From assembly GCF_055900595.2 (NCBI RefSeq), contig NZ_CM148325.1: 64,000 nt of DNA. The stretch is one strand, 5' to 3'. Position numbers and translations under genes: made by a program. The notes beneath the pieces are model-generated. The model had not been told where the DNA came from. It made no database searches and was given only the letters and a program-made list of their open reading frames with translations. This document shows positions 502 to 27,520 of this stretch, piece by piece. How positions within the stretch are numbered: the first letter of the stretch is position 1; every line of letters begins with the position of its first letter.

Positions 502-664
502 AGCTCCTCCTTAATGACAGGGTTGCGAAGCCCTGATTCTCTTCAGGGTGAATATTAAAGATAACACAAACATTGCGTAACGATTTGATAACAACCCAAA
601 TTGATAAAAGAGGAGAAACCTTGTGGCAAAGCAAATGAAAACCCCGCCGCAGCGGGGTCAGGGA

Positions 665-745
665 TCAGTGAGTAATGATCCAGAGGAGTTCGGCCCAGAA
701 GAGCATCGACAGAGAAAATGCGCCCATCCAGGACCAATATTTCAT
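665..745 (-). CDS. Small hydrophobic protein, 26 aa (MKYWSWMGAFSLSMLFWAELLWIITH), at the K-12 ymiA/yciX position
   Basis: Short ORF found by manual translation between cysB and acnA; hydrophobic single-helix peptide; below the size cut-off of the ORF track. Confidence 0.4.
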   Translation of the reverse strand: MKYWSWMGAFSLSMLFWAELLWIITH

Positions 746-873
746 ATTTGTGTTGATCATAGGCTACACCCTTAACGGTTATTACTTTGTGTTGAGATAA
801 CTCAACCTGTTATTGCTGCGGTGTATTAAAAGCCCTTTAATTCATTAAAAATGGGTAATAAGAATGATGATAA

Positions 874-1062
874 TTATTGTTTCGGCTGATCATCTACAGC
901 AAACAGTTCTATAAAGGCTTGCTGCTGCGTTGTTAGTTGCCAGTCGTCTGGAATAACGACGGAACATTCCCGTTTCGTTACTGGTTCATTGTCACTATGC
1001 TGACATAATGGTGACGACTCCAGTTGCTCCTGACCGACCATAGTTATCCCCACACTTTCCAA
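874..1062 (-). CDS. Small hypothetical protein, 62 aa, between cysB and acnA
   Basis: ORF track 874..1062; same strand and position as the small-protein genes that sit between cysB and acnA in K-12; no recognisable domain. Confidence 0.35.
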   Translation of the reverse strand: MESVGITMVGQEQLESSPLCQHSDNEPVTKRECSVVIPDDWQLTTQQQAFIELFAVDDQPKQ

Positions 1063-1502
1063 ATCAGCAGTGCGACAACCACCCAGAAAAGTGCAGAACC
1101 AAGAAATACCGCTAGCCAGGCTTTGCGTTTTAATTCAGGGTCCCGGCGGGGTTCCTGATTTCCAGAAGGCATTGCTAACCTCATATAATCGCCATCACTT
1201 ATCAGCAAGACGTTGAACGATTGGTGTAATTAATCATGCGATGAGACAAATCCTAAAGAAACTTTAGTCAAAAATCCAGCGAATTTACGAATCGTCTCCA
1301 GTGAATAATTCAATCTTTTGACCTGAAATAGATATTTGAAAACTGGAGTTTGCGAGGCGGGTAATTAGACACTACTTTACAGGTAATTTACCCTATAAAT
1401 ATGAGGGATAAAAATATTGTGCACGGTATACAAATAAGCAACAAAAGAGAATATATTCCGGCACCTTCGCTACATAAAAGGTGCCGAAAATAACGCAAGA
1501 AA

Positions 1503-14775: not shown

Positions 14776-14820
14776 ATGAAAGCGATTTTCGTACTGAAAG
14801 GTTGGTGGCGCACTTCCTGA
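14776..14820 (+). CDS. trpL: trp operon leader peptide
   Basis: ATGAAAGCGATTTTCGTACTGAAAGGTTGGTGGCGCACTTCCTGA encodes [14 protein letters not shown] with tandem Trp codons. Confidence 0.92.
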
Positions 14821-14861
14821 AACGGGCAGTGTATTCACCATGCGTAAAGCAACCAGATACC

Positions 14862-14889
14862 CAGCCCGCCTAATGAGCGGGCTTTTTTT
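14862..14889 (+). terminator. trp attenuator (3:4 hairpin and U-tract)
   Basis: CAGCCCGCCTAATGAGCGGGCTTTTTTTT immediately upstream of trpE. Confidence 0.88.
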
Positions 14890-14911
14890 TGAACAAAATT
14901 AGAGAATAACA

Positions 14912-23320: not shown

Positions 23321-23671
23321 CTGGCAGGTTTTAAAAAATCAAATAAGATATTGTATCTGAAAGAAAAAACAGGATTTTGAGATGCTTTTTTATACCGTTT
23401 TTCAGCGTTTTTAACTGCCTGATTTTATTGAAATCTTTTTTAGTTTTGCAGAAAGGATTTTTTGATCGATTGCTTTAATTTTATACATTCCTGATAACGG
23501 AAATTTTTTACCCGTTGACAGTTTTTATCCTCCGGGGCTATATTTCCAACGCGTCAGCAAAATCTGGCGTCGGGATTGGAACCCCGGATGTTTACGGAGC
23601 GATATGAGACGCGCCCGCGTCTTTTTTCATATCGTTTGCACAGTCACATTCGCGATTTATGGCGGGCTGTG

Positions 23672-23697
23672 TGGGGGAGCCGAAAGGCTCGCCGGTT
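23672..23697 (+). repeat. 26-bp direct repeat copy 1 (TGGGGGAGCCGAAAGGCTCGCCGGTT)
   Basis: Exact 26-bp match to 24412..24437; contains a GAGCC-GAAA-GGCTC tetraloop hairpin. Confidence 0.7.
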
Positions 23698-23791
23698 TCC
23701 GTACCCGGTAGTTCCAACCCCGCACAGTTCGCCACCATGATGATTGGAACCTGAAGGTGGCGATAATTTTCAAATGTACGGAGTTATCGTT

Positions 23792-24352
23792 ATGCCCACT
23801 CAAATTTCTGTCGACACTCTTCCTGCAATCACCCACAACCAGGTCCCCGTTATTACAACTGAACTTCTGGCGCAGTTATACGGAACAAAAATCAAAAACA
23901 TTTCTGATAACTTTCTGAACAACACGACGCGATTCGTGGTAGGAAAGCATTACTTTAAAATTGAAAAAAACGAATTACGCGAGTTTAAGAACAGACCCGA
24001 AACAATCGGGTTAGTTGGTAAAAATGCCCGCTCCCTTATCCTCTGGACAGAACGTGGCGCAGCCCGCCATGCCAAAATGCTCGAAACCGATCAGGCATGG
24101 GAAGTGTTCGAAAAACTGGAAGACTGTTATTTCAGCCAAAAACAACCACCAGCAACACAAAACTCACCCACCCCAAATGATGGATGCGCATTACTGATCC
24201 ACTTTGATAAACACGGTCAGGTAGAGTTCACAGAAAAAGTCCCCGCCGATGCGATGGTATGCACTCTGGAACGGTTTAAATTTTATCTGGAGCAACACGG
24301 CTGGCTCGTTGCCCGTAAAGAACAACTGGTGGAAAGGCTGATGCAGCTTTAG
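23792..24352 (+). CDS. ORF6N-domain phage regulatory protein (antirepressor-like)
   Basis: ORF track 23744..24352; start set at MPTQISVDTLPAI preceded by GGAG; N-terminal motif PVITTELLAQLYGTKIKNISDNFLNNTTRFVVGKHYFKI resembles the ORF6N/Rha-like DNA-binding domain. Confidence 0.6.
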   Translation: MPTQISVDTLPAITHNQVPVITTELLAQLYGTKIKNISDNFLNNTTRFVVGKHYFKIEKNELREFKNRPETIGLVGKNARSLILWTERGAARHAKMLETDQAWEVFEKLEDCYFSQKQPPATQNSPTPNDGCALLIHFDKHGQVEFTEKVPADAMVCTLERFKFYLEQHGWLVARKEQLVERLMQL

Positions 24353-24411
24353 CAGATATAACAAGTGTTTTTTCTCGTATGCACGCGCACATATGAATTA
24401 TTGTGGGGCGC

Positions 24412-24458
24412 ATGGGGGAGCCGAAAGGCTCGCCGGTTCAACTCCCGCCAGCTCCACC
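24412..24458 (+). repeat. 26-bp direct repeat copy 2 fused to a tmRNA (ssrA) 3'-end-like sequence GGTTCAACTCCCGCCAGCTCCACCA
   Basis: Exact repeat of 23672..23697, then a 25-nt stretch matching my recollection of the E. coli ssrA 3' terminus (T-arm, acceptor 3' strand, CCA). Confidence 0.55.
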
Positions 24459-24730
24459 ATTTTTGACAGGACTGCAACCGGACATCGACAATAAAAACAG
24501 ATAATTACGGACACTGACCAGACAACAAACAGACCTGAACAAGACAAAAATATACACGTGAAATGCACGTGCACTTTATAAAAACCCCAGATTTCACAGT
24601 CTGGGGTTTTTCTGTTTGTAAATAATGGTAACAAAAACACATCACCTTTTGGCGTTCCGTTCCTCTTGACACTGTTTATCCATACAGTTAAAAATAACAC
24701 TGTATACAAACACAGTGTAGAGGGATTTTT

Positions 24731-24979
24731 ATGCGTATTGAAATCTGTATCGCTAAAGAAAAATTCAGTAAAATGCCAAAAGGCTCTGTACCTGCTCTAC
24801 AACAGGAAATGTCTAGCCGTATCAGAAAACGATATGACGATGTGGAGGTTATAGTAAAATCCGCCAGTAATGACGGACTGACCATTTTAAGAGCCGTAGA
24901 TAAAGAAAACGCTCAGAAGTTCATACAGGAAACGCTGCAGGAAGTCTGGGAAACTGCTGATGACTGGTTTTTTCACTAA
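24731..24979 (+). CDS. DinI-family protein
   Basis: 82-aa [15 protein letters not shown]...[17 protein letters not shown]; the C-terminal ETWExADDWF motif is typical of DinI. Confidence 0.75.
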
Positions 24980-25362
24980 TCAGGACGTCAAATAAATAAC
25001 AACTGTAATTATTCTCTCCAAATTAACAATCTCTGTATACATACTCAGGCGTGTTCACGCATACAACACGCCTTTCTGATATTTAATTGTTTACAGAAAT
25101 ATTGCCGAATAAAAATATAAACCATAGTCTTAAAAAAATAATAATTCCACTATAGCTATCCCAGAACAACCAGTACAAATAATAAAAGACATATCACAGC
25201 AACACTCCACACTGACAGCGCAAAAATAAATGCCGCCTTTGTTATCTTCATATACAAGCAACCTGTCCTGATAATCACCAACTCATGTTTTATTCTTAAC
25301 CATTCGTCACAAATACAACAAAAAATAACAGCAGCAGCACCGATATCACAATATAAGATACA

Positions 25363-25818
25363 TTATTCAACACCTGAATCCCCCGCCGCTTCTCTCCCCT
25401 TTATAAAACGCCCCTTCCGGAATCCAGACCGCTGCAGTGCACGACGAAGATGACCGTATACCGTCTTGTCATTCTGCCCCGTCTCTTCTGTAATCTCCGC
25501 AATACTTAAACCTCTGTAATACCGGTTCAGTACCGCTCTGCGCTCTTCCAGCGTCAACACACCTCCGGCCGCTCTCAGATTCATCATCGACTTATTCAGA
25601 ATACAGCAGGCCTCTCCGGTAAAAAGAATACGAACAATATCTGTATACTCATCATCACAGAATACAAAATAATATCTGAATGACCTGCCTGACTGCACCC
25701 TTCTTCTGTCTGATATGGCATCTTCTATATATCTGATTCGACTGCTTACGGTTCCAAATATCTCTCGCAGGGCTTTTTCAAAATAAATATCTCTCGTCGC
25801 CAGGATTATATCCAGCAT
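25363..25818 (-). CDS. LuxR/GerE-type helix-turn-helix transcriptional regulator
   Basis: 151-aa ORF; C-terminal LTLEERRAVLNRYYRGLSIAEITEETGQNDKTVYGHLRRA resembles the GerE HTH; sits immediately downstream of the adhesin gene. Confidence 0.6.
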   Translation of the reverse strand: MLDIILATRDIYFEKALREIFGTVSSRIRYIEDAISDRRRVQSGRSFRYYFVFCDDEYTDIVRILFTGEACCILNKSMMNLRAAGGVLTLEERRAVLNRYYRGLSIAEITEETGQNDKTVYGHLRRALQRSGFRKGRFIKGREAAGDSGVE

Positions 25819-25879
25819 CTCTGTACCTCATTATATCCCGGGGGACTCCCCCCGGGACAGATATCTAAATCCTGACCTG

Positions 25880-27520
25880 TCAGAACTCAAAATTCACACC
25901 AGCATTCCACGATGCGGATGACCCACCTGCAGCAACTGCAACTTTTCCTGCCACATTCTCTGTGAAACGGTAGCCCACGCCCACCGCAATGGCCTGCTCA
26001 TCACGGTAACCACCAACGGCTGCTGTCGCGTTAAATTTTCCAACACTGTATGGCTGGAAAAGACCGGCCAGTGCCGCGCTCTGGGCTGCACTCTCCCTTA
26101 ACTCCTTCCGGTTCTCTTTAATCTGCTCCTGCATATTATTCATTCTCTCTGTCGCCATCTTCTGCCAGGCTTCCGTCAAATCCAGACGATGACTGTTATT
26201 CCTTATCGCTGCTGTATTTGAGGCTATTGCTGCATCCGTCTGCGCCACCGCTGCCGATGTGACTGCAATAATATCCCTGCTGAGTTCATCACGTACTGCT
26301 GTAACCTGACTGTCAGTATGAGCACGGGCATCTCTGTATACACCGCCTATCTCACCACGCAGACTGTCTCCCTCTGCCTTCAGTTCATCACGTACTGCTG
26401 TGACCTGACTGTCAGTATGAGCACGGGCATCTCTGTATACACCACCTATCTCACCACGCAGACTGTCTCCCTCTGCCTTCAGTTCATCACGTACTGCTGT
26501 GACCTGACTGTCAGTATGAGCACGGGCATCTCTGTATACACCGCCTATCTCACCACGCAGACTGTCTCCCTCTGCCTTCAGTTCATCACGTACTGCTGTG
26601 ACCTGACTGTCAGTATGAGCACGGGCATCTCTGTATACACCACCTATCTCACCACGCAGACTGTCTCCCTCTGCCTTCAGTTCATCACGTACTGCTGTGA
26701 CCTGACTGTCAGTATGAGCACGGGCATCTCTGTATACACCGCCTATCTCACCACGCAGACTGTCTCCCTCTGCCTTCAGTTCATCACGTACTGCTGTGAC
26801 CTGACTGTCAGTATGAGCACGGGCATCTCTGTATACACCACCTATCTCACCACGCAGACTGTCTCCCTGTGATTTCACTTCAACCCCAAGGTTGCGGGTA
26901 CGATTATCCAGCTCCACGACGAATTCTTTAACAGGGACTGTCTGAGCATTTCCGTCAGCCCTTCCGTCAGCAGTGATTCGGCCTGATGAATCCAGAACAA
27001 AATTCTGGCCTTCAACTACATTTTTATACAATGATGACAATCCCGATGTTGTATTACTAATTTTAATAAAATCCTCAGCGGTACCACCAGCATTAACAGC
27101 GGCGATATAATCATCCTTGTTTTCTGGCTTGATTATTTTTTGTAGTGATTCTTTTGTATCAACAATGGACTTTATATCTTCTGCTTTTATATTTCTGATG
27201 TTTTCGGCTTTTAATGCATCTGAGTAGATGGGGTAAGTTAGCAAATCCTGAGCAACAATATGCCTAGCATTCTCAGGAGCTGCTAATATAGCACGCGTAA
27301 TAGAATCATTCGGGACAATACGCCCTGTATTAGCTCCAGTAATAGTATTAATAAGATTAACATCATTACCTTTTGATATTACTGCCGCACCATTATCATA
27401 CAGAGTAACCTCATATCCATCTACATTAAAACTCTCTTCTGCCATAACCCCCACAGAGTAACATAACAGCGCACCGGTAACCGCCATTGCCAATACATTC
27501 TTTGCCATTATAAATTTCAT
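25880..27520 (-). CDS. YadA-like trimeric autotransporter adhesin (Eib immunoglobulin-binding-family-like)
   Basis: 546 aa; signal peptide; six tandem 33-aa coiled-coil repeats; C-terminal anchor [63 protein letters not shown] resembles YadA/Eib membrane anchors. Confidence 0.75.
26283..26872. repeat. Six tandem copies of a 99-bp repeat (two alternating variants) inside the adhesin gene
   Basis: GTCAGTATGAGCACGGGC recurs at 26312, 26411, 26510, 26609, 26708 and 26807 (period exactly 99); variants alternate CACCGCC/CACCACC. Confidence 0.9.

What the first reader, a model, noticed from the sequence alone, without database searches (positions are those of the whole stretch)
25156..25251. Possible 31-aa hydrophobic peptide gene in the DinI-LuxR intergenic region
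Minus-strand ORF MKITKAAFIFALSVWSVAVICLLLFVLVVLG is a single predicted transmembrane helix in an AT-rich spacer. Small hydrophobic peptides of this size in prophages are often type I toxins or membrane modulators. It falls below the ORF-track size threshold and could equally be chance.
Basis: inference. Interest (0 to 1): 0.25.

Follow-up and report, generated by a model that had tools for sequence, protein, structure and literature searches.

The report
Unproven small membrane-peptide ORF behind adhesin operon
The 31-codon hydrophobic reading frame is really there and looks more like coding sequence than chance, but it is an E. coli-only orphan that cannot be tested by comparison, and nothing supports it being a type I toxin.

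Summary
The ORF is exactly as described: window 25251..25156, minus strand, ATG to TAG, MKITKAAFIFALSVWSVAVICLLLFVLVVLG.

It is not a free-standing gene in a spacer. It is the last reading frame of a co-directional cassette: a YadA-like trimeric autotransporter adhesin, a 151-aa sigma-70-region-4 HTH protein, a 25-aa hydrophobic ORF, then this ORF. The cassette occurs in 183 of 5426 complete E. coli genomes, in at least four genomic contexts. Homology to the other contexts ends 12 nt past the ORF's stop codon.

An ORF of this length is unremarkable: 25% of shuffles contain one. Its hydrophobicity is unusual (0.14% of shuffles). Two tandem membrane-grade ORFs never arose in 20,000 shuffles. The ORF has a moderate Shine-Dalgarno match (-5.6 kcal/mol).

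Conservation is uninformative. All copies are at least 95% identical, no diverged homologue exists anywhere, and even the HTH gene shows almost only non-synonymous polymorphism.

No known toxin family, antisense RNA, own promoter, terminator or RNA structure was found. The true hok/sok pair in the same window was detected.

A 220-aa "fusion" protein in two draft assemblies is a homopolymer sequencing artefact.

Verdict: a plausible but unproven small inner-membrane peptide, with probability about 0.5. Interest is low.

The parts
25156..25251 (-). ORF31: ATG..TAG, 31 aa, MKITKAAFIFALSVWSVAVICLLLFVLVVLG. Predicted single-pass membrane peptide with a Lys-rich N-terminus.
   Evidence: hydrophobicity statistics. 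Gene finders called it in more than 200 public contigs. PGAP did not annotate it in the eight complete-genome regions inspected.
25261..25269 (-). Shine-Dalgarno-like AGGACAGGT, ending 9 nt before the ATG.
   Evidence: Duplex with the 16S 3' end is -5.6 kcal/mol, within roughly the best fifth of all 2132 ATGs in the window (18.9% reach -5, 10.8% reach -6). Compare Eib-like adhesin gene -4.1, YmiA -4.6, HTH -6.9. The alternative TTG start at 25281 scores only -2.2.
25296..25373 (-). ORF25: GTG..TAA, 25 aa, (M)LNNVSYIVISVLLLLFFVVFVTNG. A second hydrophobic small ORF. Its GTG overlaps the HTH stop codon (GTGTTGAATAA).
   Evidence: The SD-like GGGGGA scores -8.6 kcal/mol. KD19 is 2.85. Variants seen are one synonymous change and one in-frame CTG deletion.
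25363..25818 (-). 151-aa sigma-70 region-4-type HTH protein. It is in the same reading frame as ORF31.
   Evidence: Pfam PF08281, E=1.8e-7. Found only in E. coli at 94% identity or more, among 5.8 billion clusters and 1.84 billion representatives. Frame relation shown.
25880..27520 (-). 546-aa YadA-like trimeric autotransporter adhesin with a 99-nt x 6.1 tandem repeat. First gene of the cassette.
   Evidence: PF03895 YadA_anchor, E=1.3e-16. PDB match only to the YadA anchor, 2lme. Tandem repeat at 26283-26882.
25144..25155 (-). The last 12 nt of the cassette after the ORF31 stop. Homology to non-DinI contexts ends at 25144.
   Evidence: Most complete-genome hits start at query position 165, which is window 25144. 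In other contexts the shared sequence runs 35 nt past the stop before diverging.

Best explanation
ORF31 most likely encodes a real, uncharacterised 31-residue single-pass inner-membrane peptide. By the positive-inside rule, the N-terminal MKITK would face the cytoplasm and the C-terminus would lie at the periplasmic face.

It would be translated from its own ATG and moderate Shine-Dalgarno site on the 3' end of the transcript that carries the sigma-like HTH gene, and possibly the adhesin gene upstream. It travels with that cassette as its last cistron, alongside a second 25-residue hydrophobic ORF that is translationally coupled to the HTH stop codon.

Its probable role is that of other bacterial small membrane proteins: binding and modulating a larger membrane or envelope component. 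It is less likely to act as an antisense-controlled toxin.

Shown here: the ORF, its hydrophobicity beyond composition, the SD match, co-orientation with the upstream genes, absence of a predicted intervening terminator, and linkage to the cassette.
Inferred: translation, membrane insertion, topology and function.
For: 1. Hydrophobicity at or above the observed value occurs in 0.14% of dinucleotide shuffles of the tail.
2. Two non-overlapping ORFs with KD19 of at least 2.85 on one strand occurred in 0 of 20,000 shuffles; a single one occurred in 0.8%.
3. The T-over-A skew sits in the two ORFs (0.32 and 0.40) and is 0.0 in the 44-nt gap between them.
4. ORF31 ranks 2nd of 399 small ATG ORFs in the window. 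Ranks 1 and 4 are bona fide genes: Hok and YmiA.
5. The SD duplex of -5.6 kcal/mol is better than those of the adhesin gene and ymiA.
6. No terminator-like site lies between the HTH stop and the ORF31 stop on the minus strand.
7. The ORF, including its stop, lies inside the cassette in every context. Junctions fall 12 nt and 35 nt downstream of the stop.
8. The frame is intact in 45 of the 46 aligned copies that span the ORF (all but the indel-ridden draft L030) and in none of them is ORF31 itself broken; the best hit covers the region in 182 of 183 complete genomes.
9. Gene finders called it in more than 200 contigs. A few GenBank records list it as a hypothetical protein, e.g. EKJ80020.1.
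Against: - There is no expression evidence of any kind.
- PGAP left it unannotated in the eight complete-genome regions inspected.
- No homologue below about 94% identity exists, so the amino-acid sequence cannot be shown to be under selection.
- All observed ORF31 polymorphisms are non-synonymous (A6V, F10L, I20M, V28I, L29M) and no synonymous change was seen. The HTH gene shows the same pattern, so this is not informative either way.
- One strain tolerates an IS3 insertion at codon 3.
- A chance ORF of nearly the same hydrophobicity (2.89) exists out of frame inside cysB in this window.
- The SD spacing of 9 nt is at the long end of the usable range.
- No promoter of its own was predicted.
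Confidence: 0.5

Rival explanations
1. ORF31 is an untranslated reading frame in the 3' untranslated tail of the HTH transcript. It is either pure chance in T-rich, C-poor DNA, or a relic of a once longer membrane-protein coding region that no longer makes a product.
For: - ATG ORFs of at least 31 aa arise in 25% of shuffles.
- The coding strand of the whole cassette is C-poor (GC skew 0.25-0.5), which favours hydrophobic codons.
- An equally hydrophobic chance ORF lies inside cysB.
- There is no diverged homologue, no synonymous-only variation, and no PGAP annotation in complete genomes.
- An IS3 insertion in the ORF is tolerated in strain SFE8.
- No promoter was predicted for it.
Against: - After correcting for composition the hydrophobicity is still rare (0.14%), and the tandem pair of hydrophobic ORFs was never reproduced in 20,000 shuffles.
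- The AT skew is confined to the two ORFs.
- A usable SD and a canonical ATG are present.
- The 'relic' variant has no intact ancestor anywhere.
Confidence: 0.37
2. ORF31 is the toxin of a new type I toxin-antitoxin system. In this model its translation is held in check by an antisense RNA transcribed from the plus strand across its 5' leader.
For: - The peptide is as small and hydrophobic as Ibs-type toxins.
- One plus-strand promoter-like site (TTCATA-17-GATAAT, 25247-25275) would start an RNA antisense to the ORF31 leader.
- Prophages do carry such systems; hok/sok is in this same window.
Against: - No match to any type I toxin model in NCBIfam or Pfam at E<=1 (NCBIfam) or E<=0.1 (Pfam), while Hok is recognised in the same NCBIfam call.
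- No Rfam antitoxin even at E<=1.
- Promoter-like sites number 2, against 3.7 expected by chance.
- The plus strand has no terminator and folds worse than its shuffles (z=+1.5). The sense strand is not unusually structured (z=-0.2).
- ORF31 has no promoter of its own and sits in an operon-like tail.
Confidence: 0.05
3. ORF31 is the C-terminal transmembrane helix of a 220-aa membrane-anchored form of the HTH protein. That form would be produced by frame changes at a G5 run (25384) and a T6 run (25326), or would represent an ancestral intact allele.
For: - ORF31 is in the HTH frame, with 68 open codons after the TAA.
- Single-base changes at the G5 and T6 runs join HTH, ORF25 and ORF31 into one ORF.
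- Such a 220-aa protein (MDC9149451.1) is deposited.
Against: - The carrier assembly (L030) differs from its closest complete genome by 8 mononucleotide-run indel events against 3 substitutions in 8.6 kb. This is the signature of homopolymer sequencing error.
- The only other carrier is an assembly with fragmented genes throughout.
- 0 of 18 metagenomic or viral contigs have T7.
- 0 of 183 complete genomes match the G4/T7 allele.
- The intermediate alleles tried (one haplotype each) are not on record.
- The 0-frame context is not a canonical slippery heptamer (read directly from the sequence).
- UAA followed by U is an efficient stop signal in E. coli (established knowledge, not tested here).
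Confidence: 0.04

Closest known systems
Validated E. coli small membrane proteins of 50 aa or fewer (e.g. YmiA, present in this window at 1044-1184; YohP and MgtS recalled from the literature)
   Same: A short ORF with a canonical start. A short polar or basic N-terminus is followed by one uninterrupted hydrophobic helix. There is no Pfam domain, and standard annotation easily misses it. The hydrophobicity is comparable (YmiA KD19 2.54, ORF31 3.0).
   Different: Those proteins have experimental evidence of synthesis and are conserved across enterobacterial species. ORF31 has no expression data and no homologue outside near-identical E. coli copies. It matches none of the curated small-protein models.
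Type I toxins: Hok/Sok (in this window, 60898-61223), Ibs/Sib
   Same: A small hydrophobic peptide encoded on a prophage or mobile element.
   Different: There is no family match, no antisense RNA gene, no promoter of its own, and no structured leader. ORF31 lies in the tail of an operon rather than in a self-contained locus.
Phage 'moron' cassettes at the tail-fibre/attachment-site end of lambdoid prophages (e.g. the loci carrying eib immunoglobulin-binding adhesin genes)
   Same: The adhesin-HTH-small-ORF unit sits between the tail-fibre genes and the prophage end. It recurs in unrelated contexts with sharp homology breakpoints.
   Different: The Eib papers read or term-searched here make no mention of the downstream HTH gene or the small ORFs. 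This adhesin matches solved structures only through its YadA anchor, so it is not shown to be an Eib protein.
ECF sigma factor / membrane anti-sigma factor gene pairs
   Same: A sigma-region-4-like DNA-binding protein is followed by translationally coupled, single-pass membrane ORFs.
   Different: The HTH protein has no region-2 match. ORF25 and ORF31 have at most 5 cytoplasmic residues, so no anti-sigma domain can exist.

Membership tests
Type I toxin-antitoxin system | Small hydrophobic or membrane-active toxin peptide | tested here: met
   31 aa with 26 consecutive uncharged residues; KD19 = 3.0.
Type I toxin-antitoxin system | Sequence membership in a known toxin family (Hok, Ldr, Ibs, TisB, ShoB, Zor, DinQ and others) | tested here: not met
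   No NCBIfam, Pfam, PHROG or PADLOC hit at E<=1 (Pfam at E<=0.1). The Hok control in the window was recognised at E=1e-12.
Type I toxin-antitoxin system | Antisense or overlapping RNA antitoxin with its own promoter and terminator | tested here: inconclusive
   No Rfam match at E<=1. One plus-strand promoter-like site, but fewer sites than chance expects and no terminator. The plus strand is unstructured, z=+1.5. A novel antisense RNA cannot be excluded without RNA-seq.
Type I toxin-antitoxin system | Growth arrest or membrane damage on expression, neutralised by the RNA | not testable with these tools
   Needs an induction experiment.
Bacterial small membrane proteins (sORF products of 50 aa or fewer) | ORF with a canonical start codon and a ribosome-binding site | tested here: met
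   ATG start. AGGACAGGT lies 9 nt upstream, -5.6 kcal/mol, within roughly the best fifth of ATGs in the window.
Bacterial small membrane proteins (sORF products of 50 aa or fewer) | One predicted transmembrane helix, beyond what base composition gives | tested here: met
   0.14% of shuffles reach the observed hydrophobicity. The tandem pair with ORF25 arose in 0 of 20,000 shuffles.
Bacterial small membrane proteins (sORF products of 50 aa or fewer) | Amino-acid conservation under purifying selection in diverged relatives | tested here: inconclusive
   No relative below about 94% identity. Among 46 aligned copies there are 2 non-synonymous and 0 synonymous sites. The HTH gene shows 6 non-synonymous to 1 synonymous among the first 26 copies, and 9 variable sites among 46. 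The test has no power.
Bacterial small membrane proteins (sORF products of 50 aa or fewer) | Demonstrated translation and membrane localisation | not testable with these tools
   Needs Ribo-seq, tagging and fractionation.
ECF sigma / anti-sigma pair | Sigma factor with regions 2 and 4 | tested here: not met
   Only region 4 matches (residues 87-130). All NCBIfam sigma hits are far below their cut-offs.
ECF sigma / anti-sigma pair | Downstream membrane protein with a cytoplasmic anti-sigma domain | tested here: not met
   ORF31 has 5 residues before its helix and ORF25 has about 4. There is no room for a domain.

The most novel reading that the evidence does not exclude
ORF25 and ORF31 are both translated, as a pair of micro-membrane proteins coupled to the orphan sigma-region-4 HTH protein. 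In this reading they tether it to the inner membrane, or gate it there, and so control expression of the adjacent trimeric autotransporter adhesin. That would be a minimal membrane-signalling module carried by an E. coli-specific mobile cassette. The related reading, that recoding at the G5 and T6 runs produces a membrane-anchored 220-aa regulator, is less likely still.
Probability: 0.06. Interest if true: 0.55.

Novelty: new member of a known kind. Interest (0 to 1): 0.2.

Why it matters
If translated, ORF31 (and ORF25) would add one or two unannotated small membrane proteins to a mobile adhesin cassette. That cassette is present in about 3% of complete E. coli genomes, many of them avian-pathogenic and extraintestinal isolates, and occurs in up to eight places per genome. 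Such peptides could affect adhesin display or regulation.

The case also shows the limit of comparative genomics for young orphan cassettes. An intact frame means nothing when all copies are at least 95% identical. Homopolymer errors in draft assemblies can also create convincing-looking 'fusion proteins'. If the ORF is not translated, nothing of consequence is lost.

Tried and rejected
1. Conservation test. Searches with the peptide, a 41-aa extension and a 72-aa hypothetical fusion were run against 5.8 billion protein clusters. The HTH protein was searched against those clusters and against 1.84 billion representatives. tblastn was run against phages and plasmids, and a degenerate back-translated pattern against 100,044 species genomes. 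Only near-identical E. coli copies turned up.

2. dN/dS among 46 copies has no power. The HTH gene itself shows 6 non-synonymous changes to 1 synonymous in the first 26 copies.

3. The 220-aa HTH-ORF25-ORF31 fusion (P0006, P0045) was pursued as a possible ancestral or recoded form. It was rejected as homopolymer sequencing error.

4. Type I toxin features gave nothing for ORF31: Rfam at E<=1, a promoter and terminator scan, and RNA folding of both strands.

5. A 'tmRNA-like' hit at 24417-24459 was first taken for an attachment-site remnant. The whole-window Rfam scan shows the better copy at 23655-23739 is a C4 antisense RNA.

6. The Eib/EibG papers were searched for any description of downstream genes. 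None was found.

7. Stop-codon readthrough of the HTH TAA into ORF31 was considered, since the frames are the same. It was rejected on general knowledge that UAA followed by U is an efficient stop signal. This was not tested.

Full report
**The observation**

On the minus strand, window 25251..25156 reads ATG AAG ATA ACA AAG ... CTG GGA TAG. After the basic N-terminus MKITK come 26 uncharged residues. The maximum Kyte-Doolittle mean over 19 residues is 3.0.

An upstream TTG at 25281 would give 41 aa, but it has essentially no Shine-Dalgarno match (-2.2 kcal/mol). The ATG has AGGACAGGT ending 9 nt upstream (-5.6 kcal/mol). Of all 2132 ATGs in the window, 18.9% reach -5 and 10.8% reach -6. This match is stronger than those of the adjacent adhesin gene (-4.1) and of ymiA (-4.6).

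**The surroundings**

ORF31 is the last of four co-directional minus-strand reading frames:
- a 546-aa YadA-like trimeric autotransporter adhesin at 27520..25880 (PF03895). Its only PDB match is the YadA anchor, so I do not call it an Eib protein;
- a 151-aa protein at 25818..25363 whose only domain match is sigma-70 region 4 (PF08281, E=1.8e-7). It is not a LuxR/GerE protein;
- a 25-aa hydrophobic ORF at 25373..25296, (M)LNNVSYIVISVLLLLFFVVFVTNG. Its GTG overlaps the HTH stop codon and it has a strong SD-like GGGGGA (-8.6 kcal/mol);
- ORF31, after a 44-nt gap.

dinI (24731-24979, plus strand; PF06183) converges on this unit. No terminator-like site is predicted on the minus strand between the HTH stop and the ORF31 stop, and no minus-strand promoter-like site precedes ORF31. 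If ORF31 is expressed, it is therefore most likely expressed from the HTH transcript. This step is inference.

The window beyond 27.9 kb carries large minus-strand ORFs that look like lambdoid tail and tail-fibre genes (identified from ORF layout, not searched). The closest complete genomes place the element next to yciE and a truncated ompW.

**The cassette**

The 24980-25400 stretch matches 183 of 5426 complete E. coli genomes at 293 places, with up to 7 places per genome. Every best hit is at least 95% identical. A sensitive blastn search adds nothing more diverged.

Only 22 genomes match across the whole stretch. In all the others the match begins at query position 165, which is window 25144, 12 nt beyond the ORF31 stop. 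The cassette is found in several contexts:
- beside dinI at prophage ends, next to btsS or ompW;
- in an island beside an MliC lysozyme-inhibitor gene;
- beside an integrase and a decayed IS256;
- beside yaiO.

In the non-DinI contexts the shared sequence runs 35 nt past the stop before the flanks diverge. The 'DinI-LuxR spacer' is thus composite, and ORF31, stop codon included, belongs to the adhesin cassette.

**Chance or coding?**

Length says nothing: 25% of dinucleotide-preserving shuffles of the 219-nt tail contain an ATG ORF of at least 31 aa. Hydrophobicity does carry information. In the shuffles, 6.4% have such an ORF with KD19 of at least 2.0, and 0.14% reach the observed 3.0.

When ORF25 is included, one ORF of at least 25 aa with KD19 of at least 2.85 appears in 0.8% of shuffles. 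Two non-overlapping ones on the same strand appeared in none of 20,000. The T-over-A skew is 0.32 in ORF31 and 0.40 in ORF25, but 0.00 in the gap between them.

Across the whole window, ORF31 ranks 2nd of 399 ATG ORFs of 22-70 aa. Rank 1 is a Hok-family toxin and rank 4 is YmiA, both confirmed by NCBIfam. Rank 3 (KD19 2.89) is an out-of-frame ORF inside cysB. That is a reminder that chance can reach this level about once per window.

I read this as moderately good evidence that the tail is, or once was, coding for transmembrane segments.

**Why conservation cannot decide**

The peptide and the HTH protein are orphans. Searches of 5.8 billion protein clusters and 1.84 billion representatives returned only E. 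coli sequences of at least 94% identity or fragments of them. The exceptions were generic region-4 matches at E of about 1e-3. Phage and plasmid collections have no match at the DNA level (phages) or the protein level. A degenerate pattern encoding MKITKAAFIFA has no match in one genome from each of 100,044 species.

Among 46 aligned copies, ORF31 has two variable sites, both non-synonymous (A6V, V28I). Protein records add F10L, I20M and L29M. The clearly real HTH gene shows 6 non-synonymous changes and 1 synonymous change among the first 26 copies. Polymorphism at this shallow depth therefore does not discriminate.

The frame of ORF31 is intact in all 46 aligned copies. The disrupted copies seen are an IS3 insertion at codon 3 in strain SFE8 and a rearranged copy beside a transposase gene.

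**A lead that failed**

ORF31 is in the same frame as the HTH gene, and 68 codons are open after the TAA. A deposited 220-aa 'sigma factor-like' protein (P0006) joins HTH residues 1-146, the ORF25 frame and the ORF31 frame. It does so through G5 to G4 at 25384 and T6 to T7 at 25326. That would have made ORF31 the membrane anchor of a longer regulator. The lead fails on several counts:
- The carrier contig differs from its closest complete genome, in the same context, by eight mononucleotide-run indel events and three substitutions in 8.6 kb.
- The only other carrier is an assembly with fragmented genes throughout.
- All 17 metagenomic contigs and the one viral contig have T6.
- No complete genome matches the G4/T7 allele.
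- The single-indel intermediate alleles tried are not on record.

I treat the fusion as a homopolymer sequencing artefact.

**The type I toxin idea**

ORF31 matches no toxin family or any other family in Pfam, NCBIfam, PHROGs or PADLOC. No Rfam family matches the region even at E<=1. The sense strand folds no better than its shuffles (z=-0.2), and the antisense strand folds worse (z=+1.5).

One plus-strand promoter-like site at 25247-25275 would give an RNA antisense to the ORF31 leader. However, promoter-like sites are fewer than chance expects (2 against 3.7), and no plus-strand terminator follows. The same tools found the window's real type I system: hok at 60898-61110 and sok at 61048-61223.

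A novel antisense RNA cannot be excluded without transcript data, but nothing points to one.

**Verdict**

ORF31 is real as a sequence feature and more coding-like than chance. It probably belongs, together with ORF25, to the adhesin-HTH cassette as a small inner-membrane peptide gene, with probability about 0.5. The main rival is an untranslated chance or relic frame, at about 0.37.

It is not shown to be a toxin. It has been picked up by automatic gene finders and listed as 'hypothetical protein' in a few records, but I found no characterisation of it. At best it is a new member of a known kind, the small hydrophobic membrane proteins. Interest is low until expression is shown.

Noticed in passing
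window 25296-25373 (-): A second hydrophobic small ORF of 25 aa. Its GTG overlaps the HTH stop codon and it has a strong SD-like GGGGGA (-8.6 kcal/mol). It is arguably a better candidate for translation than ORF31. At 78 nt it is shorter than the 90-nt minimum of common gene finders (my recollection), which may be why the exact sequence is not in the protein collection.
   Followed up: partly
L030:4001-4663 (GCA_028598215.1) and L049 (GCA_019430965.1): Deposited 220- and 225-aa 'sigma factor-like' proteins fuse HTH, ORF25 and ORF31 through G5-to-G4 and T6-to-T7 changes. They are attributable to homopolymer indel errors in those draft assemblies.
   Followed up: yes
window 60898-61223 (-): A genuine type I toxin-antitoxin locus. 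The Hok-family toxin matches NCBIfam at E=1e-12 and the sok antitoxin RNA matches Rfam RF01794 at 112 bits. It served as a positive control.
   Followed up: partly
window 23551-23739 (+) and 24396-24464 (+): An isrK sRNA (RF01394) and a C4 antisense RNA (RF01695) lie upstream of an ORF6N-domain gene (23744-24352). A second, degenerate C4-like copy shares a 44-nt direct repeat 741 nt away. It first appeared as a weak 'tmRNA' hit.
   Followed up: partly
window 24700-24715 and 25033-25048: Two CTG-N10-CAG LexA-box-like sequences: CTGTATACAAACACAG upstream of dinI, and CTGTATACATACTCAG just after dinI, abutting its terminator hairpin. The second has no obvious target gene.
   Followed up: no
window 25837-25856 (-): A G+C-only hairpin (CCCGGGGGG-AGU-CCCCCGGG-like, 11-bp stem) lies between the adhesin stop and the HTH start, with no U-tract. 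It is followed directly by TATAAT and the HTH SD. The 71-nt segment folds at z=-2.5 against its shuffles.
   Followed up: partly
window 26283-26882: A 99-nt tandem repeat (6.1 copies, 98% matches) inside the adhesin gene encodes a 33-aa coiled-coil unit. Adhesin lengths in other copies range from 362 to 548 aa, which suggests variation in repeat number.
   Followed up: no
window 25363-25818 (-): The HTH protein is itself an E. coli-restricted orphan. Only region 4 is recognisable, residues 1-74 weakly match phrog_6585 of unknown function, and there is no homologue below 94% identity in 5.8 billion clusters. The window copy carries a rare L79M change, shared only with strain GF4.
   Followed up: partly
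window 631-833 (-), 1044-1184 (-), 14797-14890 (+), 57612-57762 (-): Other small features in the window: STnc180 sRNA, the small membrane protein gene ymiA, the trp operon leader, and two tRNA genes inside the prophage.
   Followed up: no
L028:4001-4390 (GCA_964257775.1): A 129-aa hypothetical protein (P0040) fuses an unrelated N-terminal region to the ORF31 frame at about window 25345. It lies next to a Transposase_mut gene, with the HTH and adhesin genes inverted 3 kb away. This is a rearranged cassette copy.
   Followed up: no
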